Part shown: positions 8,847 to 64,000 of the stretch, piece after piece
Layout: each line of letters starts with the position of its first letter
How positions within the stretch are numbered: the stretch's first letter is position 1
Origin: an uncultured Acidobacteriota bacterium
Lineage (GTDB): Bacteria > Acidobacteriota > Terriglobia > Versatilivoradales > Versatilivoraceae
Direction of reading: 5' to 3'
DNA length: 64,000 bases
Assembly (NCBI GenBank): GCA_963803155.1
Contig: CAWDMN010000059.1
Coordinates: forward strand, 300,636 to 364,635
The notes under the pieces: generated by a model
Database searches by the model: none
Seen by the model: the letters and a program-made list of their open reading frames with translations, nothing else
What the model was told of the DNA's origin: nothing
Position numbers and translations under genes: made by a program

Positions 8847-9557
8847 GATTCCATCTCCTTAAACGAAGCCGAGGATCGAATGCTGATCATTACACTAATG
8901 GGTTGGATCCAGCTGAGCGGAAGAGTTCATAGTTCAATCAACAGTAAAGTAGCACAGATGAAAACTGGCAAGCAATGCCGGATATCCAGGCGAGTGCAAA
9001 TAAAAGGCGACTGTTTAGGCGGGAGGAACTGAACCCGAAGGGTTCACAGCCATTAGCCGTGGGTAAGGCCGTTGGGCCGCCACCCCCGGATATAGGCAAT
9101 AATGGGATCGCCCCCGATAGGGGTCGCAGCTTACGAAGGTGCTACGCCCCTTCAGGGTCGGATTGGTTCGCTCTTTTGACCGGTGGTTGAGCGTGTGACT
9201 ACCGGCACCCGCGCGGAGACAACGAGATCGCCGGACCGCAGTCCGACTCTCACTTTATGCCATCCACGGCATTACTTCCCTCTCACTTTTAATTGCGCCA
9301 TGTCCAAGCATTATTGACGAATGCTTGCGGAATTGGGTGAAGGGATCAATAAAAAGCGATCCCGGCGCCTCAATCGAAGTCAATGATCTTGGATGACGAT
9401 TATATGTTGTTGCCTTTATTGGCTGGGGTTTTGTGGCATTCGCACTTGGCATTTTCCACTTTTCAGTGGACAATGACGTTTGATTATCCTGCGGCAACAG
9501 CTGTATTTGGAAGAGCGGACTGGTCATACCGCGGAAGATGGAAGAGGTGCATAAAAG

Positions 9558-10490
9558 GTGAGCAAGGATAAACCCAAGTCAGTCCTTCTGGTCGTCAGTC
9601 TTCTCATCACCTGCATCACCTGGCCCTTGGCGTACGATCTTTGGTTTTCCCATGTGGAAACGGCTTTTGCCGTGTCGGTCTTTTTCCTCGGTTTGTCACT
9701 CGGACCGTGTCTGGCCGCTTATGCGCTGGTTCCCAAAAGCCGGAAAGGGGAGCTCCGCCGATGGGTGCTGTTTTGTAGCGGACTCAGCATCATAAGCCTT
9801 TCTATATTGGGCTCGATGAACCTGGACCTGGAAGGTTTCTTCATGCTCCTTATGGCGGGCACAATGGGAGCCGCCATCGGTCACACCATGATTACCGTCA
9901 TTGCGGGACCCATGCTTTTTGGCCGCTTTTTGTGCGGGTGGGGCTGTTGGCGCGCCATGATCCTTGAGTTACTGCCCATTGGCCGAAGTCCGGGCCGTCG
10001 TCAAGGTGCCTGGTGCTTTCTGCCAATAGCCGGATTGGGCGCCAGCATCGGGGGTGCGGCACTTTCATTTTATGTGCTGAAGCACCACCCGGGTGGCACT
10101 CCTCAGACAATGCATGGTGGAACTACCCTTCCCATAGCCGTGGGATTCGCGATCTACTATGCGGCTTCAATTAGCCTGGCTTTTCTGGTTAAGGATCAGC
10201 GGGCCTTCTGCAAATATCTTTGTCCAAGCTCTGTAATCTTGCGACAATCCAGCCGGCTTGCGCTCGTCAAAATGTCCGCCAGACCCGGACTCTGCAACGA
10301 TTGTGGGGCCTGTTCCCGAGTTTGTCCCATGGATATTAATGTGGCTCAATTCGTTCAAAGCGGACGCCGTGTGGCATCGGGAGAGTGTATCCTCTGCCAG
10401 CAATGCGCGCACGCCTGCCCAAAAGATGCGCTGCATCTCACCCTTGGATTCGACCTCGCCAGAAAGACTCCGTTTAATGGTTCGACTTGA
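9558..10490 (+). CDS. membrane-bound 4Fe-4S ferredoxin-type protein (NapH/MauN-like)
   Basis: Several TM helices are followed by two cluster motifs, CNDCGACSRVCP and CILCQQCAHACP. Confidence 0.7.
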   Translation: MSKDKPKSVLLVVSLLITCITWPLAYDLWFSHVETAFAVSVFFLGLSLGPCLAAYALVPKSRKGELRRWVLFCSGLSIISLSILGSMNLDLEGFFMLLMAGTMGAAIGHTMITVIAGPMLFGRFLCGWGCWRAMILELLPIGRSPGRRQGAWCFLPIAGLGASIGGAALSFYVLKHHPGGTPQTMHGGTTLPIAVGFAIYYAASISLAFLVKDQRAFCKYLCPSSVILRQSSRLALVKMSARPGLCNDCGACSRVCPMDINVAQFVQSGRRVASGECILCQQCAHACPKDALHLTLGFDLARKTPFNGST

Positions 10491-35686: not shown

Positions 35687-37237
35687 ATGCAAGACAAAAA
35701 AGTGGAGACTCTTATGCAAAAATTTCGCGACAGCATTCTTGACTTAATCAGTCAAACTTCGACCAATTTGCCCACGGATGTGCGTCAGGCAATGGAGCCC
35801 GCCATTGGTCGAGAGAGGCCCAACACCCAGTCTTCACAGGCATTGGCGGTGATAGCAACTAATATTGATATGGCTGTCCATGCGACAGGGCCAATCTGCC
35901 AGGACACCGGGATGCCCACGTTTAAAATCAAAGTTCCGGTCGGAATCAATCAAATTCAGATGAAAGGGGAGATCCGGGAGGCGATAGCGAAAGCTACGCG
36001 GCTGGGCTGGTTGCGCCCCAATTCCGTGGATTCCTTGACCGGGAAAAACAGCGGGAACAACCTTGGCCCGGGTACACCCATTTTTTATTTTGACCAATGG
36101 GAAAGCCCTGACGAGATCGAAGTCAAGTTGCTGCTTAAAGGGGGAGGGTGCGAGAATAAAAATATACAATATTCCCTTCCCTGCGAATTGTCGCATCTCG
36201 GCCGTGCCGACCGCACTTTGGAGGGTGTCCGCAAATGCATCCTGCACGCAGTGTGGCAAGCCCAGGGACAAGGTTGCAGTGCGGGAGCTCTCGGCGTTGC
36301 CATTGGAGGCGACCGGACTTCAGGATATGCATTTGCTAAAGAACAACTTTTCCGTTCCCTGGACGACATCAATCCGACCCCTGAACTGGCCAAGCTCGAA
36401 GACTATATTATGAAAGCCGCCAATACCCTGGGCATAGGGACGATGGGATTTGGCGGCGATGTCACGCTGATTGGCTGCAAAGTGGGCGCCTTCAACCGGC
36501 TCCCCGCCAGTTTTTTTGTCTCCGTAGCATACGACTGCTGGGCGTTTCGTCGCTTGGGCGTGGTTCTGAACGCATCCAGCGGCGAAATCAAACGCTGGCT
36601 CTATCGCGACGCCGCTAAAGATAAAGCATTGTCGACCGGTGAAGGCTTCCCACGCACGGGCCGGGAAATTCGCCTGAGAGCGCCACTAAGCGAACAGGAA
36701 GTTCGAAATTTAAAAGTCGGAGATGTGGTCTTGATTGATGGCGAAATGTATACGGGCAGAGACGCTGTCCACGCCTATCTCACCAAGAACTCCGCTCCCG
36801 TTGACCTTCGAGGGCAGATCATTTACCACTGTGGACCTGTAGTGTTGGGGAAGGAAGGGGATTACCGCATGACTGCCGCTGGACCGACCACCAGCATCCG
36901 GGAAGAACCTTATCAAGGGGGCATTATCCGCAAATTTGGCCTTCGAGCGGTCATCGGGAAAGGGGGCATGGGATCCAAAACTCTGGCTGCCCTGCAAGAG
37001 TCCGGCGCTGTCTATCTCAACGCCATCGGGGGAGCCGCCCAATATTATTCACGCTGCATCGAAAAAGTGCTGGGAGTAAATTTTCTCGAATTCGGCATTC
37101 CTGAAGCCCTTTGGCATATCCAGGTCAAGGAATTCCCCGCCATCGTCACCATGGATGCTCACGGAAATTCCCTTCATGCCGACGTCGAAAAGGCCTCCGC
37201 TGCATTGCTCGGGCGCTTGGCGGAGCCGGTGTTTTGA
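35687..37237 (+). CDS. class I (Fe-S dependent) fumarate hydratase / L(+)-tartrate dehydratase-type hydro-lyase, fused alpha+beta
   Basis: The alpha domain has the cluster-ligand Cys context ICQDTGMPTF. The C-terminal beta-domain is also present. 516 aa, as in single-chain FumA-like enzymes. Confidence 0.85.
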   Translation: MQDKKVETLMQKFRDSILDLISQTSTNLPTDVRQAMEPAIGRERPNTQSSQALAVIATNIDMAVHATGPICQDTGMPTFKIKVPVGINQIQMKGEIREAIAKATRLGWLRPNSVDSLTGKNSGNNLGPGTPIFYFDQWESPDEIEVKLLLKGGGCENKNIQYSLPCELSHLGRADRTLEGVRKCILHAVWQAQGQGCSAGALGVAIGGDRTSGYAFAKEQLFRSLDDINPTPELAKLEDYIMKAANTLGIGTMGFGGDVTLIGCKVGAFNRLPASFFVSVAYDCWAFRRLGVVLNASSGEIKRWLYRDAAKDKALSTGEGFPRTGREIRLRAPLSEQEVRNLKVGDVVLIDGEMYTGRDAVHAYLTKNSAPVDLRGQIIYHCGPVVLGKEGDYRMTAAGPTTSIREEPYQGGIIRKFGLRAVIGKGGMGSKTLAALQESGAVYLNAIGGAAQYYSRCIEKVLGVNFLEFGIPEALWHIQVKEFPAIVTMDAHGNSLHADVEKASAALLGRLAEPVF

Positions 37238-56391: not shown

Positions 56392-56545
56392 CCTGCAATG
56401 CTGTAAAGTCGATCCGAGACCGAAACTAATCTCAAACCAATCATAAAAGGGAAAGTCCTAAACTTAGTTGAAAAAGGAGCATGACCTCACTTAAAACAGA
56501 GGTGTTTTACCGGCAAGTAAGACACTGAGATTAAGGAGATCATGC

Positions 56546-57299
56546 ATGGGACAGAGAGTAATTGGAGCCGGAAAAAGAAGCAAGGGCAAAGAGAGAAGAA
56601 AAAAGAGACAACAAATCCAAGAAGAAGTTAGGACTTTGGACAGTCGGTTTGAACTGATCCAGATGTTGATCCCTCTAGGCTTGAAAGCAGTGGAAGAAGA
56701 ATTACAGAAAGAGGTGGAACAGCTGGTTGGCCGCGGAGCCAGCCGGAGTCCGGAGAATCGACGCTGGGGAAGAAATCCAGGATCAGTCTACCTGGGAGAT
56801 CAGAAAGTCAGAGTCGAAGTGCCGCGAGTACGAAATGTAGCGGTGCGCCAAGAAGTGCCTCTGGAGAGTTATCAAGCTTTTCGAAAGACGAAGGTGTTGG
56901 ACCATCAGGTCCTGAATCGACTGATCTGTGGGATCAGCCAGAGGCAATATGAACAGGCGGCTCTCTGTGTGCCCGAGACGTTTGGGATCAAAAAGAGCAG
57001 TGTGTCGCGACACTTCATTCGAACCACGGCTCGGAAGTTGGAAACTTTTTTGAATCGGGATTTGAGCCAGCACGATCTTGTGGCGATCTTTATCGATGGG
57101 AAGCGGTTAGCAGAAACCGATATGATCGTGGCTTTGGGGATTACGCTCGAGGGTAAAAAGATCCTATTGGGATTTGTAGAAGCCAGCACAGAAAATCAAC
57201 GAGTGGCTCAGGATTTTATCCAGCGACTGCTGGATCGAGGGTTAAGAACCGAACAGGAGATTCTCTTCATTATCGACGGAGTCAAAGGGCTGTATAAAG
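56546..57299 (+). pseudogene. IS256-family (mutator-type) transposase, N-terminal fragment, interrupted by IS66
   Basis: ...HDLVAIFIDGKRL...ILFIIDGVKGLYKG is typical IS256 DDE region 1. The frame continues at 59823 (IKASLAEKALIQRCQWHKRENV, IS256 region 2). Confidence 0.75.
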
Positions 57300-57345
57300 G
57301 TAAGCGTCCATTTATCCCCACCTTGTGATTACGGGGGGACAGGGA

Positions 57346-58965
57346 TTATGATGACTGGTTTTGTGAAGAACGGCGGACCGGTTTGAGATCAACATTCCAG
57401 GGCAACAGTGGATCCAGATTTTGATTATCTCTGAGCGGCAGGTTGGGCAATTTCTCAAATAAAAGGAATAGATAAGCATAAGGATCCAGGTTGTTTTCTT
57501 TGGCGGTTTCGATAAGGCTGTAGATGATGGCACTTGATTTCGCCCCCTTGGGGGTGTTACTGAACAGCCAGTTTTTCCTTCCAATGACGAAGGGTTTGAT
57601 GGATCGTTCCGCCCGGTTGTTGGACAGTTCCAACCGGCCATCCTCCAGGAAACGGATCAGCTTCGGCCATTGCTGACGACAATAATTCACGGCCACGCCC
57701 AAAAGGCTTTTAGGTAAAACGACCAGAGCTTGTTCATCCAACCACCGGCGAAACTGATCCAACACCGGCCGGCTTTTCTCTTGCCGTGATTTCAAACGCT
57801 CTTCCGGAGTGCTCTCTTTCAGTCCCCGCTCCATGTCAAAGAGCCGATTAATCTGATCCAAGCCCGCCTGGGCCTGGCTGCCGTTCTTGCGATACTTGGC
57901 CGGCAATCCTTTCAGAGCTTCATCGAATTTTCTTCGAGCATGCGCCCAACACCCCACCAAAGTGACCTGGGGCAGGTCATGATATCCCGCATAGCCATCC
58001 ACCTGCAGATATCCCTGGAATCCTTTTAAGAATTCTTTGGGATGATCTCCAGCACGGCTTTGCTGATAATCATAGAGGACCATAGCGGGTCCTTCTCTTC
58101 CGGTCCGATACAACCACATGTACGATTGGCTCTCCGCCTCTCGTCCCGGTTCCTTCAGCACTTGGACCGTTGTCTCATCCGCATGGAGAATATCCCGCTC
58201 GAGCAACTTTTGCCTCAAACGAAGATAGAGCAACTCCAGCCATTCACTTCCCTTGATCATCCAGTTTGAAAGAACCGATCGGGACAGTTCGATGCCCATC
58301 CGCTGATAATGTTGTTCTTGCCGGTACAAGGGCACCCCTTCCACAAACTTCATCGTCATCACATAAGCCACCGACGAAGCCGAAGCCAGACCTTTTTCAA
58401 TCACCGGTTTGGGTGCCACCGCCGTTTTAATGGGTACTTCGATCCCATTCTTCTCGCAGTTCCGGCAGCTGTAGACAAAACGGACGTGCTGTAAGATTTT
58501 TACCTGCGCCGGAATCAGCTGCACTTCATGACGGGTCTCTTCACTCATTTCGTGCATCCGGCCGCCACAACAGGAACAGACCTGCTCCTCTTCCGCCAGC
58601 CGGTACTCGATGCGCTCCATCGGAAGGTCTTGCGGAATGGGCCGCCGCCCGGGCTTTCTTTTCCGTTCATAGCTGATGGTAATCTTGTCTTCGGCGAGAG
58701 CCGGAGCGGCTTCATCGACTGCTTCCGCCTCATTGAACAGGCTGGGTTGTTCCGGCACGCTGCGTTCACTCGATGGGCCATACTGTTTGGCTCGCGCCAA
58801 GTGAAACTGCTCCTCAAACCAGCGCAGCTTTTCCTCCAGCTGTTCGATTTTTGTGGCCTGTTGATTCAACTGAGCAACCAGTTCTTCGCGAGTTTCCAGG
58901 GGCTTTGGCAAGACCGTTGACATGCCTGCTATTATACGGATTTGCCCTTCTTTTTTCAAGTACAA
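57346..58965 (-). CDS. tnpC: IS66-family transposase TnpC (DDE, zinc-finger)
   Basis: N-terminal leucine zipper. Zinc-finger CSCCGGRMH...CRNC. The DDE core region matches IS66 Orf3. Confidence 0.9.
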   Translation of the reverse strand: MYLKKEGQIRIIAGMSTVLPKPLETREELVAQLNQQATKIEQLEEKLRWFEEQFHLARAKQYGPSSERSVPEQPSLFNEAEAVDEAAPALAEDKITISYERKRKPGRRPIPQDLPMERIEYRLAEEEQVCSCCGGRMHEMSEETRHEVQLIPAQVKILQHVRFVYSCRNCEKNGIEVPIKTAVAPKPVIEKGLASASSVAYVMTMKFVEGVPLYRQEQHYQRMGIELSRSVLSNWMIKGSEWLELLYLRLRQKLLERDILHADETTVQVLKEPGREAESQSYMWLYRTGREGPAMVLYDYQQSRAGDHPKEFLKGFQGYLQVDGYAGYHDLPQVTLVGCWAHARRKFDEALKGLPAKYRKNGSQAQAGLDQINRLFDMERGLKESTPEERLKSRQEKSRPVLDQFRRWLDEQALVVLPKSLLGVAVNYCRQQWPKLIRFLEDGRLELSNNRAERSIKPFVIGRKNWLFSNTPKGAKSSAIIYSLIETAKENNLDPYAYLFLLFEKLPNLPLRDNQNLDPLLPWNVDLKPVRRSSQNQSS

Positions 58966-59058
58966 AATTCCCTGAAACCCTCATATTTACTGGTATCTTA
59001 ACCGTTTTTGCCGTAACTTTTTCAGCCGGCCAAACTGGCTGTCCAATCTTTGCACAAC

Positions 59059-59412
59059 TCAGATCACCACCCGAGCCGCCACCGCCCGATGAGCTTGCCG
59101 CTGCTCCACACTCAATCCATCCAACAACCACTGCAATTGCCGCCGCCTGATGGCCAAGGGCTCCTCACCTCCCGACGGCCACTGGAATCGCCCCCGTTCT
59201 AATCGCCGGTAATAAAGCCAGAACCCATTATGTTCCCAACGAAGAATCTTCAACTTGTCCCGCTGCCGGTTGCAGAAAACAAACCACTGCTCCGAAAAAG
59301 GGTCCAATTGAAATACTCCACTGACCAGAGCCGCCAATCCATCGATCGATTTGCGAAGGTCAGTCGCCCCGGGTGCCAGATGAATCGGACTTACTGGCAC
59401 CTGGCTCAACAT
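59059..59412 (-). CDS. tnpB: IS66 Orf2 (TnpB)
   Basis: The 117-aa protein PIHLAPGATDLRKSIDGLAALV...RDKLKILRWEHNGFWLYYRRLERGRFQWP matches the IS66 Orf2 family. Confidence 0.85.
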   Translation of the reverse strand: MLSQVPVSPIHLAPGATDLRKSIDGLAALVSGVFQLDPFSEQWFVFCNRQRDKLKILRWEHNGFWLYYRRLERGRFQWPSGGEEPLAIRRRQLQWLLDGLSVEQRQAHRAVAARVVI

Positions 59413-59735
59413 GCCGCACCCACCACCTCCAGCACCTCGGCCAGCAGTTGCCGGTCAAATCCCCTCTCTACCTCCACAATCACTCGCCCAATCCTCAGGC
59501 GAATTCCAGTGTCCCGATTTGACGGATCTTCCTCGCACAATTGCAAGGGTATCCAGCCCATTCGTTTTTTCTCGAGGGATCGAATCGCCTGCTTTTTTAA
59601 TTTCCGTTGCCAATAACCCAACCGATGAATGGGGATCTGATGCTGCTGACAATATTCCCTTCGGCTTACTCCACTTTCTTGATATCCTCGGACTTGCTGC
59701 TGCCAATACTCTATGATCTCTGCTGTCGCCTTCAT
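59406..59735 (-). CDS. tnpA: IS66 Orf1 (TnpA, HTH)
   Basis: 109 aa, SGVSRREYCQQHQIPIHRLGYWQRKL. It overlaps tnpB by 7 nt, the typical IS66 arrangement. Confidence 0.8.
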   Translation of the reverse strand: MKATAEIIEYWQQQVRGYQESGVSRREYCQQHQIPIHRLGYWQRKLKKQAIRSLEKKRMGWIPLQLCEEDPSNRDTGIRLRIGRVIVEVERGFDRQLLAEVLEVVGAAC

Positions 59736-59822
59736 GATGGACTTTGCCTCCCTATTGTATTTTCGGAAGCATTATCCTCGGCAATGGTTTTTATTGGAAG
59801 GTGGGGATAAATGGACGCTTAC

Positions 59823-60339
59823 GTATAAAGGGATCAAGGCGAGCCTGGCGGAGAAAGCCTTGATTCAAAGATGCCAATGGCACAAGCGGGAAAATGTAGT
59901 CAGTTATTTGAGCCGGGAACAAGCAAAACGATTCCGGCAGAAAATGCAGACGGCTTATCAGCAACCCAGTTATGAAAAGGCGAAAGAAGCCCTGGAGCGA
60001 ATTGCTAAAGAGCTGCGATTGATCAATGGTTCTGCGGTGGAGAGCCTGAAAGAAGGGTTAGAAGAGACTCTGACTCTGCATCGTTTGGGATTGTTTGAAG
60101 AATTAGGCACCAGTTTTAAAACCACCAATTGCATTGAGAATGTGAATCGGCAATTGGAGCGGTTGACGCATCGAGTCAGTTACTGGAAGAACAGCGATCA
60201 GCGCCAGCGTTGGATAGCCACGTCGCTCCTGCAAATTGAGCCCGGGCTAAGAAAGGTGAAAGGCTTTCGTCATCTAAAAGCCCTTCGCAAAGCCATGAAA
60301 AAGGAAAGTCATCCAAAATCGGATCAAGCAGCCGCTTGA
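59823..60339 (+). pseudogene. IS256-family transposase, C-terminal fragment
   Basis: Contains the conserved IQRCQWHKRENV motif. It is in frame with 56546-57299 once the IS66 and one duplication copy are removed. Confidence 0.75.
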
Positions 60340-60498
60340 GGCTTATGCTCATTTTCAACTAAAAAAGGGCTTGACCCTCATAAAATCCTGCTGGGACTAG
60401 ACGGAGATATCGTGAGTTTGTACCTTTGCAAATCTGGCACCATCCTCCTGCGGCCAGCACGCTGGTGAATGTGTTCAATATGCACATGGTTCTATGAA

Positions 60499-60541
60499 GT
60501 CCAACACGGCGGCACACTGGCCAGCGTGCTTTTCGCGCTGG
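60499..60541. repeat. hairpin-containing ~43-bp motif (family R5), copy 1, about 105 nt 3' of the helicase gene
   Basis: gtccaacacggcggcacactggccagcgtgcttttcgcgctgg is similar to 62114-62164. Confidence 0.55.
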
Positions 60542-60646
60542 GGAATTTCCTGATCAGGTGAAGTAAGCTTGCTGGGAGTCATTTTTCAGAATACCTAAAT
60601 TCTAAGGGCCAGCACTGTTCCGCCTTTGCAGCGATCAAATCAACTG

Positions 60647-62107
60647 TCATGGTTGGACTTTGTTTTCGTTGTGCAAAGGCCTCAAACGTCCGTAGAAATC
60701 CAGAATTGTGCCGTCGGCCTTTACGTCGATCATGGAAATTGGACGGTCAAGGCTGATCCCTTCCATTGTTCTGCAGCGCGATAAAGCAACGTAGGTTTGC
60801 CCCGAGCAGAACGCACCTTGCCCTAAGTCGATTCTTACTGAGTCGAGCGTCATGCCTTGCGACTTATGAATTGTTATGGCCCATCCAAGTGTAATTGGAA
60901 ATTGCGTAAATGAGCCGACGACATTACTGATGATCCGCTTCTCGATGCGGTCATACTCATACTTAATCTTCTCCCACGTCACCCGTTCTACACTTACAGT
61001 GTTCCCTGTATTCTGGATTTCTATTCGTAGTTTATCGTTCTCGATGTTAATGACCCTTCCAAGGGTTCCATTAAGCCAATACGGTTTATTGTTCTTTACG
61101 AATAAGATCTGCGCTCCTTCTTTAAGTTCTAATCGATGCGGAGCCTGGAATCGATCTCTCTGCACGTCAAACTCTCCTTCAATGATCGCGTCAAACTTCC
61201 AGAGTGGGGCCTCCAGGGCGTTCAAATTCTGAGTATTGATCGATTTGGCGGCGGCATTGGTTGGAACGAGGAACAATGAGGGATTGGCGCTCGGTTTGCG
61301 GTCTCGGAAGCAATCGCGGTTGATCCGCGCCACGGCCTCACGGTGGTCATTGTTAAGTCTGATGCGATCAAGCAGGTCAACGAACTCTTGATTTGTCTGG
61401 CGAAACACTTTGGTCAGTTCAATAGAGATCACTTTCGCTTGGCCGAAAATATCGGCAGAGAAAAAGTGGGAAGACCGATACCTATCCGTGTAATATTGTG
61501 CGACTTCTGGATCTCTGACCACAGGCGGCAACTGGAGAAGATCCCCCACGAATATCACCGGAACCCCACCAAATGGGCGCGGATCCCTTCGAACTTTCTT
61601 GAGCGTGTTGCTCATACAATCGACTAAGTCGGGAGGGACCATCGATATTTCATCGACTACGAGTGCGCCGAGACATTCGATGACGGGAACGATCTGTCGC
61701 CTTGGCTCGAACGCCTCATCGGGATTCAGTGTTCGTGGAGGGATGTTAAAAAACGAGTGGATTGTTGATCCGTGAACATTGATCGCTGCAAGTGCAGTCG
61801 GTGCCACAACGGCACAATTTGCGATCTTTTCGGAAAGGAACCGGATAAGTGTGGACTTTCCGGTCCCCGCGCGTCCCGTTACAAAAATAGCGGGACATCC
61901 GCCCTCAATCGCTTCTAAGACAAATTGGTATTCTGGCAGAACTACAATCGTATCCGTGTCCTGCTTTGTAGCGGACGAAATACGCTTCGGATTCGTTCGC
62001 TGGGTCGGTGCAAGTTCGCGGTCGATCTTCGACAGATCAACCGGCGTTTGTGCATCCACGCCGAGCAAGCGTTTTGCCAGATTGCTTATACCAGACCAGA
62101 CACTCAT
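60647..62107 (-). CDS. SF1B Pif1/RecD-like DNA helicase (compact, 486 aa)
   Basis: Walker A VTGRAGTGKST. Motif II LVVDEISMV (DExx without the UvrD-type DEFQD). Motif III VIFVGDLLQLPPV (Pif1-type GDxxQLPPV). Motif V ITIHKSQGMTLD. Motif VI TYVALSRCRT. Confidence 0.75.
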   Translation of the reverse strand: MSVWSGISNLAKRLLGVDAQTPVDLSKIDRELAPTQRTNPKRISSATKQDTDTIVVLPEYQFVLEAIEGGCPAIFVTGRAGTGKSTLIRFLSEKIANCAVVAPTALAAINVHGSTIHSFFNIPPRTLNPDEAFEPRRQIVPVIECLGALVVDEISMVPPDLVDCMSNTLKKVRRDPRPFGGVPVIFVGDLLQLPPVVRDPEVAQYYTDRYRSSHFFSADIFGQAKVISIELTKVFRQTNQEFVDLLDRIRLNNDHREAVARINRDCFRDRKPSANPSLFLVPTNAAAKSINTQNLNALEAPLWKFDAIIEGEFDVQRDRFQAPHRLELKEGAQILFVKNNKPYWLNGTLGRVINIENDKLRIEIQNTGNTVSVERVTWEKIKYEYDRIEKRIISNVVGSFTQFPITLGWAITIHKSQGMTLDSVRIDLGQGAFCSGQTYVALSRCRTMEGISLDRPISMIDVKADGTILDFYGRLRPLHNENKVQP

Positions 62108-62113
62108 TTATTA

Positions 62114-62164
62114 GTCCAACACTGCTGCTCCCCTGACCAGCGCACTTTCCGCGCTGGTCAGGGG
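62114..62164. repeat. R5 copy 2: perfect 11-bp stem / 7-nt loop (ctgaccagcgc-actttcc-gcgctggtcag) between the OLD-family gene stop and the helicase start
   Basis: Read directly. It shares gtccaacac-gc-gc...ccagcg..cttt.cgcgctgg with 60499-60541. Confidence 0.6.
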
Positions 62165-62190
62165 AAGCAAGCTTGTTCGCATTTCATTCG

Positions 62191-64000
62191 TTACGAGTCA
62201 TAAAGCCTTCGGATTTCCTGCAACCATCCTCGGACATCACCTTGTGGATCCACAGCTGTAAGCAGTGTAGGAGTCATTGCAGACGCTGCCTCCGAATTAA
62301 GGCGTCTTTTTGTGCGACTGACCTTCTTTCGCTTCTTCTCTTCTTCAAGGTTATTCCAAGGATCGCACCCACCCCCAATATCGTGGATGTTTTGAGCGAC
62401 GATATCAGGAACATCATCGAAGTCGGTATAAGTGACATTGACTCCAATAGCTGAGTTGATAGCGTCAGGGTGAAGGTAGTTCTCCATTTCGCGTTTGCCT
62501 GTAAGTAATGCTCGGCCTCCTCGAGCGTTGATGGAATCAACAGCGCTCTGGTGTGAAGAGACTTTAGGAGGCAGATCGTCGCGATCGTAGAGATGAAATT
62601 CAGGTCGATTGAGACCGGCGAGCCTGTGAGTCCAAAGCGTGAGGTTTGAACCTCCTACGGGAATGAACACGAGTCGCCCCTGGCTTTCTAGTCCGCGCAA
62701 GTCAAGAACATCTTCCCCTGCTGCTCGTAGTACATCTGAAATATTGCAGAGGAAATCAATGTCGTTGACACCCTCAACGCCGATGAAAAGCCGAACATCG
62801 TGGTCGGCAATAACACCAAGAGAGGAAGCGATGTTACGATATGTGTCGGCTGCATTCTGATGAACGACCCGCCCGCCTGTTCCTTCTGTCGTAACATGCT
62901 TAAGGGCGCTAAGCGGAAGGTCTCGCACCAACAATGGGGTGTGTGTAGTGAAAATTACCTGACATCCGGGTTGCTCACTGAGATCGCGCAATGCTGTCAG
63001 AAGTAACCGCTGGTTCCTTGGGTGCTGGCTGGTTTCTGGCTCCTCGATTGCGTATATGACTCCGGGTGCTTCAGCAGTGGCTAAACGCTTCTCTGCTCTG
63101 GCTCTAAAGAAGTTCAGAAGTATTAGTCGTCGAACACCGCTACCTCGTTTGTTTATTGGTATCTGGAAGTCGTCCGTCAAGCTGATACCAAATACCTTCG
63201 CCCAGTTCGGCTTCGAGAAACGTGGATTCAGTTCTTGCGCAAGTGTCGGATCCATCTCACGAAGCTTCTCGACTGTTGCCCGTGCAATTCCGAGGACTTG
63301 ATCGCGAACAAATGTGGTCAGAGTCTCGAGTGCAACTTCCTGAATCTGCAGTGCTTCGTCAACAGCTGTCTTAAGAGGATCTTGGGCTTCTTCGTCTTGG
63401 TCGGTGCTCTTACGATCAGAGTGAAAAATAGCGAAAAGTGGGAGTTGCTTGGAAAGCGCCCCCCATATCTTCTTCGCGTCCTCCTTCTCGATGTCAATCT
63501 CCTGCTCGCGAGGATGAAGGGCTGGTGCTGAGCACCATATTGCTTGGCGGAGTTCTGAATTGACTCGTTGATCCACCTGACTGATGTCGACACCGAGTTG
63601 CTCTGCGCGATTCTTTAGGTCTCTGTTCTTCAAATATAGTAGGTCAGAGTATTTCTCCGCAGTAGGATGACTGGCGAAAATGAATGTGCGTGTGAGTTTT
63701 GGTTTCTGAAGTTCTCCATTGAAAACGCGGTGAATCTCCAAATTCCCTTGTCCATTGAGCAGCCATTCATCTGCAGGAGATACCTTGTGGTCAGTGTCGA
63801 TCAGGATGCTTTTGGGGAGATCGGAGAATTCACACATTATGGTCATATCGGCTTTGTTGCCAGTAATACTTCCATCGTCAGAATCTGGCATATACTCGCC
63901 GAAGAACATTGCGAGCGCATCCAATATTGCGGATTTGCCTGAATCATTACGCCCGATAAGCGCTGTAAGCGCTTCAAGGTTAATAGCTGTTTCCGCTTGA
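62191..64000 (-). CDS. OLD-family ATP-dependent endonuclease (N-terminal ABC-type ATPase + C-terminal TOPRIM), 5' end beyond window edge
   Basis: The frame stays open to position 64000 and reads ..QAETAINLEALTALIGRNDSGKSAILDALAMFF (Walker A of OLD/AAA_15-21 ATPases). The TOPRIM block is RLFIGVEGVNDIDFL...HLYDRDD. It has the same orientation as the helicase and sits 83 bp upstream of it. Confidence 0.7.
   Translation of the reverse strand, partial: QAETAINLEALTALIGRNDSGKSAILDALAMFFGEYMPDSDDGSITGNKADMTIMCEFSDLPKSILIDTDHKVSPADEWLLNGQGNLEIHRVFNGELQKPKLTRTFIFASHPTAEKYSDLLYLKNRDLKNRAEQLGVDISQVDQRVNSELRQAIWCSAPALHPREQEIDIEKEDAKKIWGALSKQLPLFAIFHSDRKSTDQDEEAQDPLKTAVDEALQIQEVALETLTTFVRDQVLGIARATVEKLREMDPTLAQELNPRFSKPNWAKVFGISLTDDFQIPINKRGSGVRRLILLNFFRARAEKRLATAEAPGVIYAIEEPETSQHPRNQRLLLTALRDLSEQPGCQVIFTTHTPLLVRDLPLSALKHVTTEGTGGRVVHQNAADTYRNIASSLGVIADHDVRLFIGVEGVNDIDFLCNISDVLRAAGEDVLDLRGLESQGRLVFIPVGGSNLTLWTHRLAGLNRPEFHLYDRDDLPPKVSSHQSAVDSINARGGRALLTGKREMENYLHPDAINSAIGVNVTYTDFDDVPDIVAQNIHDIGGGCDPWNNLEEEKKRKKVSRTKRRLNSEAASAMTPTLLTAVDPQGDVRGWLQEIRRLYDS

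What the first reader, a model, noticed from the sequence alone, without database searches (positions are those of the whole stretch)
60499..62164. The same hairpin-containing ~45-nt motif follows both genes of the OLD/helicase pair
gtccaacacggcggcacactggccagcgtgcttttcgcgctgg (60499-60541) and gtccaacactgctgctcccctgaccagcgcactttccgcgctggtcagggg (62114-62164) share a 5' box GTCCAACAC and a CCAGCG-loop-CGCTGG hairpin. The second copy forms a perfect 11-bp stem. One copy sits between the nuclease stop and the helicase start (it ends about 20 nt before the AUG). The other sits about 105 nt after the helicase stop. This placement suggests gene-by-gene transcript punctuation (terminator, attenuator or RNase processing site), or a short repeat used in assembling the module.
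Basis: seen in the sequence. Interest (0 to 1): 0.5.

Follow-up and report, generated by a model that had tools for sequence, protein, structure and literature searches.

The report
Integron attC sites flanking two cassettes
The repeated hairpin motif is best read as the recombination site (attC) that ends each integron gene cassette, so the OLD nuclease and the helicase look like two independently mobile cassettes lying side by side, not an operon with its own punctuation.

Summary
Two related units lie at 62114-62181 and 60499-60577. They share 54 of 67 aligned bases (z = 12 against shuffles), and nothing else in the 64 kb resembles them.

Both genes are on the minus strand. Read on that strand, each unit ends in GTGTTGGAC, which contains the integron core site GTTRRRY. 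Copy 2 has the full attC layout seen in all 12 class-1 attC sites I examined: R'' TGCGAAC, 5 nt, 3 bp, a 1-nt bulge, 6 bp, then the mirror arm, 5 nt and GTTGGAC. It is the only such site in the window on either strand.

OLD homologues (76-79% identical) in three other contexts lack the helicase. They start at the same G|TTCGC and are followed by an attC with the same R'' but a different stem. Helicase homologues (75-81%) lack OLD, and two sit among attC sites that a model trained on class-1 sites recognises.

Copy 1 is a degenerate copy. The helicase cassette's true R'' (GTCCAAC) overlaps its stop codon.

This is not a terminator, a known RNA, a widespread REP element or Gabija. No integrase is in view. 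Verdict: new members of a known kind, modest interest.

The parts
62191..64000 (-). OLD-family ATPase/nuclease ORF. It runs off the window end. The full protein is 616 aa and starts at about 64041.
   Evidence: Pfam AAA_15 and AAA_21, and PADLOC AriA, Old and GajA hits. The full length was read from the identical Logan contig L077. The best PDB match is the Thermus OLD nuclease 6p74, E = 5.6e-13.
62114..62181 (-). Copy 2: the attC site of the OLD cassette. On the gene strand it reads TGCGAAC-AAGCT-TGC-T-TCCCCT...AGGGGA-GCA-GCAGT-GTTGGAC.
   Evidence: It is the only site in 64 kb (both strands) that fits the canonical attC layout with 9/9 L-box pairs; 100 shuffles average 0.04 sites. As single-stranded DNA it folds at -26.5 kcal/mol, z = -7.8, with bulges on the 5' arm, like aadA1 attC.
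62175..62181 (-). R'' (inverse core) of the OLD cassette attC: TGCGAAC.
   Evidence: It is the exact reverse complement of the cassette's own first bases, G|TTCGCA (L077:104-110). Homologous OLD cassettes carry TGCGAAC (L082), CGCGAAC (L085) and TGCGAAT (L175) at the same place.
62129..62165 (.). Perfect 15-bp inverted repeat with a 7-nt loop. It forms the L box and terminal stem of copy 2.
   Evidence: the repeat finder I5; folding.
62114..62120 (-). R' core site GTTGGAC (GTTRRRY). The inferred crossover lies between 62120 and 62119. The helicase cassette starts TTGGAC-TAATAA-ATG.
   Evidence: Sequence. The same boundary is seen in L081: GTTGGGT-TAAAAAT-ATG.
60647..62107 (-). Pif1-family SF1 helicase ORF, 486 aa.
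   Evidence: Pfam PIF1, E = 4.6e-28. PDB bacterial Pif1-like 8bnv, E = 3.8e-92.
60652..60658 (-). R'' of the helicase cassette, GTCCAAC. It overlaps the last codons (K-V-Q-P-stop).
   Evidence: It is the exact reverse complement of the cassette start GTTGGAC. The same GTCCAAC opens a canonical 59-nt attC in the 81%-identical homologue (L176:2831-2889), which model R1 scores at 31 bits, E = 6.7e-5.
60499..60577 (-). Copy 1: a degenerate attC-type unit, 81% identical to copy 2. The R' GTTGGAC (60499-60505) is intact. The position aligned to R'' reads TCCCAGC. It has a 12-nt insertion at 60542-60553 and a broken outer stem.
   Evidence: Alignments. L-box layout only 5/9. It does not fold better than shuffles.
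60499..60658 (-). Possible long composite attC of the helicase cassette (160 nt), running from R'' GTCCAAC to R' GTTGGAC.
   Evidence: The DNA fold pairs AAGTCCAAC with GTTGGACTT (9 bp) and GGCGG.ACA with TGT.GCCGCC. Energy -26.7 kcal/mol, z = -2.2, with 4 of 200 shuffles as good. It is branched and non-canonical, so its function is doubtful.
60365..60379 (-). Terminator-like hairpin plus T-run (GAGGGTCAAGCCCTT TTTTAG), downstream of copy 1.
   Evidence: scan_promoters_terminators. It is not part of the repeat.
56546..60339 (+). Nested insertion sequences that end the array. A Mutator/IS256-family transposase gene is split into 56546-57328 and 59713-60339 by an IS66 element (transposase 57346-58965, minus strand).
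   Evidence: Pfam Transposase_mut halves and the IS66 domains. IS66 inverted repeats at 57295-57324 and 59798-59827, 93% complementary.

Best explanation
**What it is.** The two units are attC sites, the single-strand-folding recombination sites of integron gene cassettes. They share one sequence type and sit in a short cassette array on the minus strand.

**Order on the gene strand**
1. G|TTCGCA, just outside the window.
2. OLD nuclease ORF.
3. attC (copy 2, 62181 to 62114).
4. G|TTGGAC.
5. Pif1 helicase ORF, whose last codons hold the cassette's own R'' GTCCAAC.
6. About 75 nt.
7. A degenerate attC unit (copy 1, 60577 to 60499).
8. G|TTGGAC.
9. About 130 nt, then the nested IS elements.

**How it would work (inferred from established integron biology).**
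- The bottom strand of an attC folds into a hairpin.
- The R and L boxes of that hairpin bind an integron integrase.
- The bulged bases fix which strand is used.
- Strand exchange between the G and the TT of GTTRRRY excises or inserts one cassette.

**What is shown and what is inferred.**
- Shown here: the sequence anatomy, the layout, and the conserved cassette boundaries in homologues.
- Inferred: that an integrase acts or acted on these sites.
- Copy 2 looks functional. Copy 1 looks decayed.

**Consequence.** OLD and the helicase are separate, independently mobile single-gene cassettes, not a two-gene system.
For: **1. Core sites.** On the gene strand both units end in GTTGGAC, which fits GTTRRRY. 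In copy 2 this is 6 nt before the next ATG.

**2. Layout.**
- All 12 class-1 attC sites taken from plasmid integrons share one register: R''(7), 5 nt, 3 bp, 1-nt bulge, 6 bp, then 6 bp, 3 bp, 5-6 nt, R'(7).
- Copy 2 fits it 9/9.
- A scan of both strands of the window for that layout returns copy 2 alone, and only in the gene orientation. Shuffled windows average 0.04 hits.

**3. The cassette rule.** R'' is the exact complement of the first bases of its own cassette, for both genes.
- OLD: TGCGAAC against GTTCGCA.
- Helicase: GTCCAAC against GTTGGAC.

**4. OLD homologues.** Homologues 76-79% identical, in three other contexts (L082-84, L085-86, L175):
- start at the same G|TTCGC(A/C) followed by a ribosome-binding site;
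- are followed by an attC-like site with R'' (T/C)GCGAA(C/T) and an unrelated body, three of the four (this window's copy 2 included) forming a stable bulged hairpin and L085's not;
- end in GTTATGT, GTTAGAA or GTTATGC;
- have different neighbours on both sides.

**5. Helicase homologues.**
- In L081 (78% identical) the gene sits in a one-direction array of small genes (TIR, PIN, HicAB). They are separated by attC sites that my model R1 scores at 25-64 bits.
- R1 was built from 12 class-1 sites plus three sites from this same L081 array, but the hits include sites that were not seeds.
- In L176 (81% identical) a 59-nt attC opens with the same GTCCAAC, at 31 bits.
- R1 also finds an attC ending exactly at the GTTCGCA in front of the L082 OLD homologue.

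**6. Context.**
- No promoter-like site lies in 60300-62400.
- The two sites are 1.6 kb apart on one strand, which meets the CALIN criterion of Cury et al. 2016 (PMC4889954).
- That paper also reports that attC sites are more alike within an integron than between integrons. This matches the two units resembling each other (score 31.7) far more than they resemble attC sites of homologous cassettes (scores -9 to +8).
Against: - My covariance model aligns copy 2 in the correct register but gives it only 5.0 bits. That is not significant in the 64-kb scan, where two unrelated sites score higher. The same model also missed the clearly attC-shaped sites of L175 and the OLD attC of L082, so its reach is narrow.
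- IntegronFinder's own model could not be run.
- No tyrosine recombinase is encoded anywhere in the window. The DNA upstream of OLD could not be fetched, so only two sites are visible.
- Copy 1 fails the layout test (5/9). It has AGC where AAC should be and does not fold better than chance.
- The long R''-to-R' version is branched and unlike known attC sites.
- R'' of copy 2 (TGCGAAC) fits RYYYAAC only at C3 and the AAC.
- The OLD attC of L085 does not fold better than shuffles (z = 0.34).
- Not every helicase homologue lies in an attC context (L078, L169).
Confidence: 0.8

Rival explanations
1. Flanking duplication. Only one attC existed, that of OLD. Copy 1 is a duplicate of it, made when a helicase-bearing segment was inserted next to it, so the two units are the left and right junction repeats of that insertion.
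For: - In L169 a 75%-identical helicase is flanked by a 52-nt direct repeat of local sequence, 90% identical, spaced 1645 bp apart. The spacing here is 1615 bp.
- The helicase's own R'' lies about 75 nt upstream of copy 1.
- Copy 1 is degenerate.
- The bodies of attC sites from homologous cassettes elsewhere are unrelated to copy 1.
Against: - The similarity starts and stops at the attC limits. It begins just after R'' and ends at GTGTTGGAC, the crossover point. That is what homogeneous attC sites in one array look like.
- No known mechanism makes 70-nt target duplications at two unrelated targets.
- Both junctions obey the integron rule that R'' complements the cassette start.
Confidence: 0.1
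2. A dispersed genomic repeat (REP/BIME or MITE-like) that happens to occupy these two intergenic spaces.
For: - It is a palindromic, GC-rich, intergenic unit of about 70 nt, as REP elements are.
- The rest of the source genome could not be searched.
Against: - There are only two copies in 64 kb, both at cassette boundaries.
None resembles the unit beyond the pattern.
- This reading does not explain the conserved cassette boundaries or the attC layout.
Confidence: 0.05
3. Transcript punctuation. The hairpins act mainly as terminators, attenuators or RNase processing and stabilising sites between the genes.
For: - Copy 2 would be a very stable RNA hairpin, 21 nt before the helicase AUG.
- The helicase has no clear Shine-Dalgarno sequence.
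- From my own recollection of the literature, not checked here: attC hairpins in mRNA are reported to modulate translation of cassettes. A secondary effect of this kind is therefore plausible.
Against: - No U-tract follows either hairpin, and the scan calls neither as a terminator.
- No Rfam match.
- Copy 1 is not stably folded.
- Homologous cassettes keep the site but not its sequence.
Confidence: 0.05

Closest known systems
Integron attC sites (59-base elements), as in class 1 cassettes such as aadA1, cmlA1, blaVIM-2 and estX
   Same: - Imperfect palindrome at the 3' end of a promoterless ORF, in the ORF's orientation.
- AAC ending the 5' box and GTTRRRY as the 3' box.
- Identical spacing: 5 nt, 3 bp, 1-nt bulge on the 5' arm, 6 bp.
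- R'' complementary to the cassette's own start.
- Length 68 nt, within the 58-114 nt range of the sites I extracted.
   Different: - Primary sequence is unlike class 1 or Burkholderiales types, so my model gives 5 bits.
- The bulged base is T (A in the bottom strand) rather than the usual C (G).
- Copy 2 has a second conserved-position GAC, but it is paired, so no second bulge.
- Copy 1 is degenerate.
CALIN (cluster of attC sites lacking an integron integrase) or a fragment of a sedentary chromosomal integron (Cury et al. 2016, PMC4889954)
   Same: - Two attC sites less than 4 kb apart on one strand.
- No integrase within 64 kb on one side.
- Non-resistance cargo.
- IS elements abutting the array.
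- attC sites that resemble each other, as in chromosomal integrons.
   Different: - Only two sites are visible, and the upstream side is outside the window. An integrase may lie just beyond 64000, in which case this is a complete integron.
- Both cassettes (about 1.9 and 1.6 kb) are near the roughly 2 kb upper size quoted in that paper.
Phage-defence integron cassettes (bioRxiv 10.1101/2024.07.02.601719; Darracq et al. 2025, as cited in PMC12614218)
   Same: Defence-type genes (a stand-alone OLD nuclease, and an SF1 helicase) carried as single-gene cassettes. Relatives lie among TIR, PIN, HicAB, AbiE and NERD/Fic cassettes or neighbours.
   Different: - No defence function was tested here.
- The preprint never mentions 'helicase' or 'Gabija', and 'old' appears only as the ordinary adjective.
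Gabija (GajA OLD nuclease plus GajB UvrD-like helicase)
   Same: An OLD-family ATPase gene is followed by an SF1 helicase gene on the same strand.
   Different: - The helicase is Pif1-family, not UvrD-like.
- The two genes are separated by a recombination site.
- Their close homologues occur apart.

Membership tests
Integron attC site | 3' core site R' = GTTRRRY on the strand of the cassette ORF | tested here: met
   GTTGGAC at 62120..62114 and at 60505..60499 on the minus strand.
Integron attC site | 5' inverse core site R'' = RYYYAAC | tested here: inconclusive
   - Copy 2: TGCGAAC. C3 and the AAC fit; the other three positions do not. It is identical to R'' of the homologous OLD cassette in L082.
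- Helicase cassette: a perfect GTCCAAC at 60658..60652.
- The position in copy 1 that aligns with R'' reads TCCCAGC and fails.
Integron attC site | R'' complementary to the first bases of its own cassette (the circular-cassette junction) | tested here: met
   - OLD: TGCGAAC against G|TTCGCA, 7/7.
- Helicase: GTCCAAC against G|TTGGAC, 7/7.
- Homologues score 6-7/7.
Integron attC site | R box, unpaired spacer, then an L box with an extra-helical base on the R''-L'' arm, at fixed spacing | tested here: met
   - Copy 2 has the same register as 12/12 class-1 attC sites, with 9/9 L-box pairs.
- It is the only such site in 64 kb on either strand; shuffles average 0.04.
- Copy 1 scores 5/9, so the feature is not met for copy 1.
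Integron attC site | Significant score with an attC covariance model | tested here: not met
   - My model R1 (15 canonical sites) aligns copy 2 in the right register at 5.0 bits, below two unrelated sites in the window scan.
- R1 also misses other attC-shaped sites (L175, and the OLD attC of L082).
- IntegronFinder's curated model could not be run.
Integron attC site | Homologous genes elsewhere are bounded by recognised attC sites at the same positions | tested here: met
   R1 hits:
- L081:9384-9508, 24.9 bits, after the helicase homologue.
- L176:2831-2889, 31 bits, opening with the same R''.
- L082:7900-7988, 19.9 bits, ending at the GTTCGCA in front of the OLD homologue.
Integron (complete) | An integron integrase (IntI) and an attI site next to the first cassette | not testable with these tools
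   - phmmer finds no tyrosine recombinase in the window.
- The upstream side lies beyond 64000, and the 459-kb source contig was not returned.
- Only 103 nt upstream of the OLD cassette are known (L077). They are not clearly attC or attI.
Integron attC site | Recombination by IntI through the folded bottom strand | not testable with these tools
   This needs an excision or suicide-conjugation assay.
Gabija (GajA/GajB) | The OLD-family GajA is encoded with a UvrD-like helicase GajB as a conserved pair | tested here: not met
   - The helicase is Pif1-family (PDB 8bnv, E = 3.8e-92; no GajB hit in PADLOC).
- OLD homologues in three other contexts and helicase homologues in six lack the partner gene.
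Intrinsic terminator | GC-rich hairpin followed directly by a U-run | tested here: not met
   The scan calls neither unit. The tails read AGCAGCAGTG (gene strand) and AAGCAAGCTT (opposite strand).
REP/BIME-type dispersed repeat | Many copies scattered through intergenic regions of the genome | tested here: inconclusive
   - Two copies in 64 kb, both at cassette ends.
- No family member in 185,579 species genomes or in IMG/VR.
- The rest of the source genome could not be searched.

The most novel reading that the evidence does not exclude
**Reading.** The body of an attC site can be replaced or homogenised after a cassette has formed.

**Basis.**
- The OLD cassette keeps identical boundaries in four genomes: start G|TTCGC and R'' (T/C)GCGAA(C/T).
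- It nevertheless carries four unrelated attC bodies.
- In this array its attC body is 81% identical to the unit behind the neighbouring, unrelated helicase cassette.
- Integrase crossover at G|TT cannot move an attC body between cassettes. Some other process would be needed, such as gene conversion, repair templated by a neighbouring hairpin, or the flanking duplication seen in L169.

**Why it would be new.** It would be direct evidence on why attC sites are alike within one integron, which Cury et al. 2016 discuss as an open question.

**A weaker alternative.** Integron shuffling has here assembled a Gabija-like nuclease-plus-helicase pair from two independent cassettes.
Probability: 0.25. 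Interest if true: 0.5.

Novelty: new member of a known kind. Interest (0 to 1): 0.3.

Why it matters
- **It corrects the annotation.** The locus is not a two-gene OLD/helicase (Gabija-like) operon with its own regulatory punctuation. It is two independent single-gene integron cassettes in a short array that is cut off by insertion sequences.
- **It adds cargo types.** A stand-alone OLD-family nuclease (about 1.9 kb) and a Pif1-family helicase (about 1.6 kb) join the list of large, defence-type integron cassettes. This fits recent reports that integrons stockpile phage-defence genes.
- **It gives a small test case.** One cassette gene occurs with four different attC bodies, and one attC type occurs on two unrelated cassettes. 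This bears on how attC sites become alike within an array.

Tried and rejected
- **Terminator or attenuator:** rejected. No U-tract, no call by the scan.
- **Known RNA family:** none matched.
- **Genome-wide REP element:**
  - In IMG/VR it hit one conserved phage coding sequence present in 18 contigs.
- **Fetching DNA beyond 64000:**
  - The OLD ORF as read inside the window is truncated and is not on record.
  - Look-ups of the exact helicase and OLD proteins returned only a 3.8-kb Logan contig.
  - Cluster look-up gave no accession or organism name.
- **Metagenome scan with the helicase alignment:** it was swamped by general Pif1/RecD motifs and returned relatives mostly 36-45% identical, which were not useful.
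- **Covariance model from canonical attC sites:** it did not score the window copies significantly.
- **A broader second model:** abandoned. MAFFT could not place the 5-nt and 6-nt spacer classes in one register, and alignments cannot be edited. I replaced it with an explicit layout scan with shuffles.
- **attC read on the plus strand (genes antisense):** rejected. The layout fits only the minus strand.
- **Homology between the window's helicase 3' flank and the attC of L081 beyond R'':** unconvincing.
- **The 103 nt upstream of the OLD cassette as an attC:** the fold is not better than shuffles and there is no AAC box.
- **Host organism:** I ran no further search on identifying it.
Full report
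**1. The observation**

- GTCCAACAC occurs exactly three times in the window, two of them here.
- CCAGCG-N5-12-CGCTGG occurs three times against 0.05 expected, two of them here.
- Alignment shows a longer repeat than described: 62114-62181 (68 nt) against 60499-60577 (79 nt).
- 54 of 67 aligned bases are identical, and copy 1 has a 12-nt insertion.
- The alignment score is 31.7. Shuffles give -10.2 +/- 3.5.
- An HMM of the two copies finds no third copy in 64 kb.
- Copy 2 holds a perfect 15-bp stem and folds far better than shuffles (z about -7 to -8). Copy 1 does not.

**2. Orientation and genes**

Both ORFs are on the minus strand.

- The upstream ORF is an OLD-family ATPase/nuclease.
  - It has AAA_15 and AAA_21 domains, and its best PDB match is Thermus OLD 6p74.
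  - It runs off the window end.
  - The identical Logan contig L077 shows it is 616 aa.
- The downstream ORF is a Pif1-family helicase. It is not the UvrD-like GajB of Gabija.
- On the gene strand, copy 2 lies between the OLD stop codon (62193-62191) and the helicase ATG (62107).
- Copy 1 lies after the helicase stop codon (60649-60647).

**3. What the unit is**

On the gene strand both units end in GTGTTGGAC. This contains GTTGGAC, a match to the integron core site GTTRRRY.

Copy 2 reads TGCGAAC AAGCT TGC-T-TCCCCT ... AGGGGA-GCA GCAGT GTTGGAC.

To test the resemblance rather than rely on memory, I took real sites from public records.

- I extracted 12 attC sites from class 1 integrons on plasmids: aadA1, aadA2, aadB, psp, qacL, cmlA1, estX, blaVIM-2, aac(6')-Ib4, aac(6')-29a, arr-3 and dfrA5.
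- All 12 share one register: R''(7), 5 nt, 3 bp, a 1-nt bulge, 6 bp, then 6 bp, 3 bp, 5-6 nt and R'(7). L-box pairing is 8-9 of 9.
- Copy 2 has exactly this register with 9/9 pairs.
- I scanned both strands of the window for NNNNAAC-5-3bp-1-6bp...6bp-3bp-5/6-GTT with 9/9 pairs.
  - It returns one site, copy 2, and only in the gene orientation.
  - 100 block-shuffled windows average 0.04 sites.
- As single-stranded DNA, copy 2 folds like aadA1 attC, with single-base bulges on the 5' arm.

**4. Cassette boundaries in relatives**

*OLD homologues.* Homologues 76-79% identical were recovered in three other contexts: L082-84, L085-86 and L175.

- None has the helicase, and neighbours differ on both sides.
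- In all of them, and in the window's own contig L077, similarity starts at G|TTCGC(A/C), followed by a ribosome-binding site and ATG.
- About 10 nt after the stop codon comes R'' (T/C)GCGAA(C/T).
- After R'' comes a body of unrelated sequence. It forms a stable bulged hairpin in L082 and L175 but not in L085 (z = 0.34).
- After the body comes GTTATGT, GTTAGAA or GTTATGC.
- TGCGAAC is the exact complement of GTTCGCA. This is the expected signature of a cassette that circularises.

*Helicase homologues.* Homologues 75-81% identical were recovered in six contexts, none with OLD.

- In L081 the gene sits in a one-direction array of small genes (TIR, PIN, HicAB) separated by obvious attC sites. 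It is preceded by GTTGGGT-TAAAAAT-ATG, against GTTGGAC-TAATAA-ATG here.
- In L176 a canonical 59-nt attC opens with GTCCAAC at the homologous codons. It is translated as the C-terminal tail ...VQQDPGPNGLPPAGQQ that several 497-499 aa relatives share.
- In the window the same GTCCAAC survives at 60658-60652, overlapping K-V-Q-P-stop. It is the exact complement of the helicase cassette's start GTTGGAC.

**5. Covariance-model test**

I built model R1 from the 12 class-1 sites plus three from L081.

- It finds non-seed attC sites in L081, including one after the helicase homologue (24.9 bits).
- It finds one ending at the GTTCGCA in front of the L082 OLD homologue (19.9 bits).
- It finds the L176 helicase attC (31 bits, E = 6.7e-5).
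- It aligns copy 2 end to end in the expected register but gives only 5.0 bits.
- In the 64-kb scan two unrelated sites score higher.
- The model is dominated by proteobacterial primary sequence. It also misses the plainly attC-shaped sites of L175 and the OLD attC of L082.

I record this as a membership test that was not met, made with a weak instrument.

**6. Copy 1**

- Copy 1 keeps R' and the CCAGCG hairpin core.
- It has AGC where AAC should be, a 12-nt insertion and a broken outer stem. It fits the layout only 5/9.
- The stretch from the helicase R'' to this R' (160 nt) folds with AAGTCCAAC paired to GTTGGACTT. The fold is branched and only marginally better than shuffles (z = -2.2).
- I read copy 1 as a decayed attC of the same type as copy 2.

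A rival is that copy 1 is a junction duplicate made when the helicase segment was inserted. The helicase homologue in L169 is flanked by a 52-nt direct repeat of local sequence, 90% identical. Against this rival, the similarity between the two units begins just after R'' and ends at the crossover point.

**7. Context**

- No tyrosine recombinase is encoded in the window.
- An integrase, if present, would lie beyond 64000. That DNA could not be obtained.
- Downstream, the array stops about 130 nt after copy 1. There it meets a Mutator/IS256-family transposase gene that is itself split by an IS66 element.
- As seen, the locus meets the definition of a CALIN: at least two attC sites less than 4 kb apart on one strand with no integrase nearby (Cury et al. 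2016, PMC4889954). It could equally be the end of a complete integron.
- That paper also reports that attC sites are more alike within an integron than between integrons. This matches the two units here.
- No promoter-like site lies between the genes.

**8. Alternatives rejected**

- The units are not terminators.
- They match no Rfam family.
- They are not a widespread repeat.
- The locus is not Gabija (and the separate contexts of the homologues).

**9. Verdict**

- The 'punctuation' reading is not supported.
- The 'assembly repeat' reading is right in the specific form of integron attC sites.
- The 'pair' premise is wrong.
- This is a new member of a known kind, of modest interest.
- One point is worth following up: the same OLD cassette carries different attC bodies in different genomes, yet here it shares its attC type with an unrelated neighbour. 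Integrase crossover alone cannot produce that.
- Integron cassettes that encode phage defence are already described (bioRxiv 10.1101/2024.07.02.601719; PMC12614218).

Noticed in passing
L169:7875-7926 and 9520-9571: A helicase homologue (75% identical) is flanked by a 52-nt direct repeat, 90% identical, spaced 1645 bp apart. The repeat is the 3' end of the upstream amidohydrolase gene. The downstream neighbour is an AAA_15/DUF3696 ATPase preceded by GTTCGCC plus a ribosome-binding site, like the start of the OLD cassette. How this arose is unexplained.
   Followed up: partly
L176:2831-2889; proteins P0002-P0005 and P0007: In helicase homologues of 497-499 aa the attC site lies inside the ORF. 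It is translated as a conserved C-terminal tail (...VQQDPGPNGLPPAGQQ). The window's helicase stops right after R''.
   Followed up: partly
window 56546-60339: Nested insertion sequences. An IS66 element (inverted repeats 57295-57324 and 59798-59827; transposase 57346-58965, minus strand) sits inside a Mutator/IS256-family transposase gene (56546-57328 plus 59713-60339). A direct repeat of about 30 nt (about 56470-56497 and 60341-60368, read by eye) brackets the outer element.
   Followed up: partly
window 60456-60473 and 60513-60530: An 18-nt stretch downstream of copy 1 is 83% complementary to part of copy 1. It contains the small palindrome CCAGCGTGCTGG (about 60459-60470). It may be a remnant of a third attC body of the same type.
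   Followed up: no
L077:1-103 (window coordinates about 64060-64162, outside the window): The 103 nt upstream of the OLD cassette start contain a GGGACC...GGTCCC hairpin and a TGTTGGGAC box. There is no AAC inverse core, and the fold is no better than shuffles. This could be a decayed attC or part of an attI.
   Followed up: partly
L168:4208-4921: In a 4.8-Mb contig a helicase homologue (78% identical) lies three genes downstream of a divergent 237-aa tyrosine recombinase. That recombinase is 29% identical to IntI1 over 151 aa. This may be an integron-like platform.
   Followed up: no
window 60365-60379 (minus strand): A terminator-like hairpin with a T-run lies about 120 nt downstream of copy 1, at the edge of the IS nest. 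It is the only terminator-like site after the helicase.
   Followed up: no
window 36576-36598: A third CCAGCG...CGCTGG hairpin lies inside a 516-aa ORF (35687-37237). It has no GTCCAACAC box and no similarity to the repeat, so it is probably chance.
   Followed up: no
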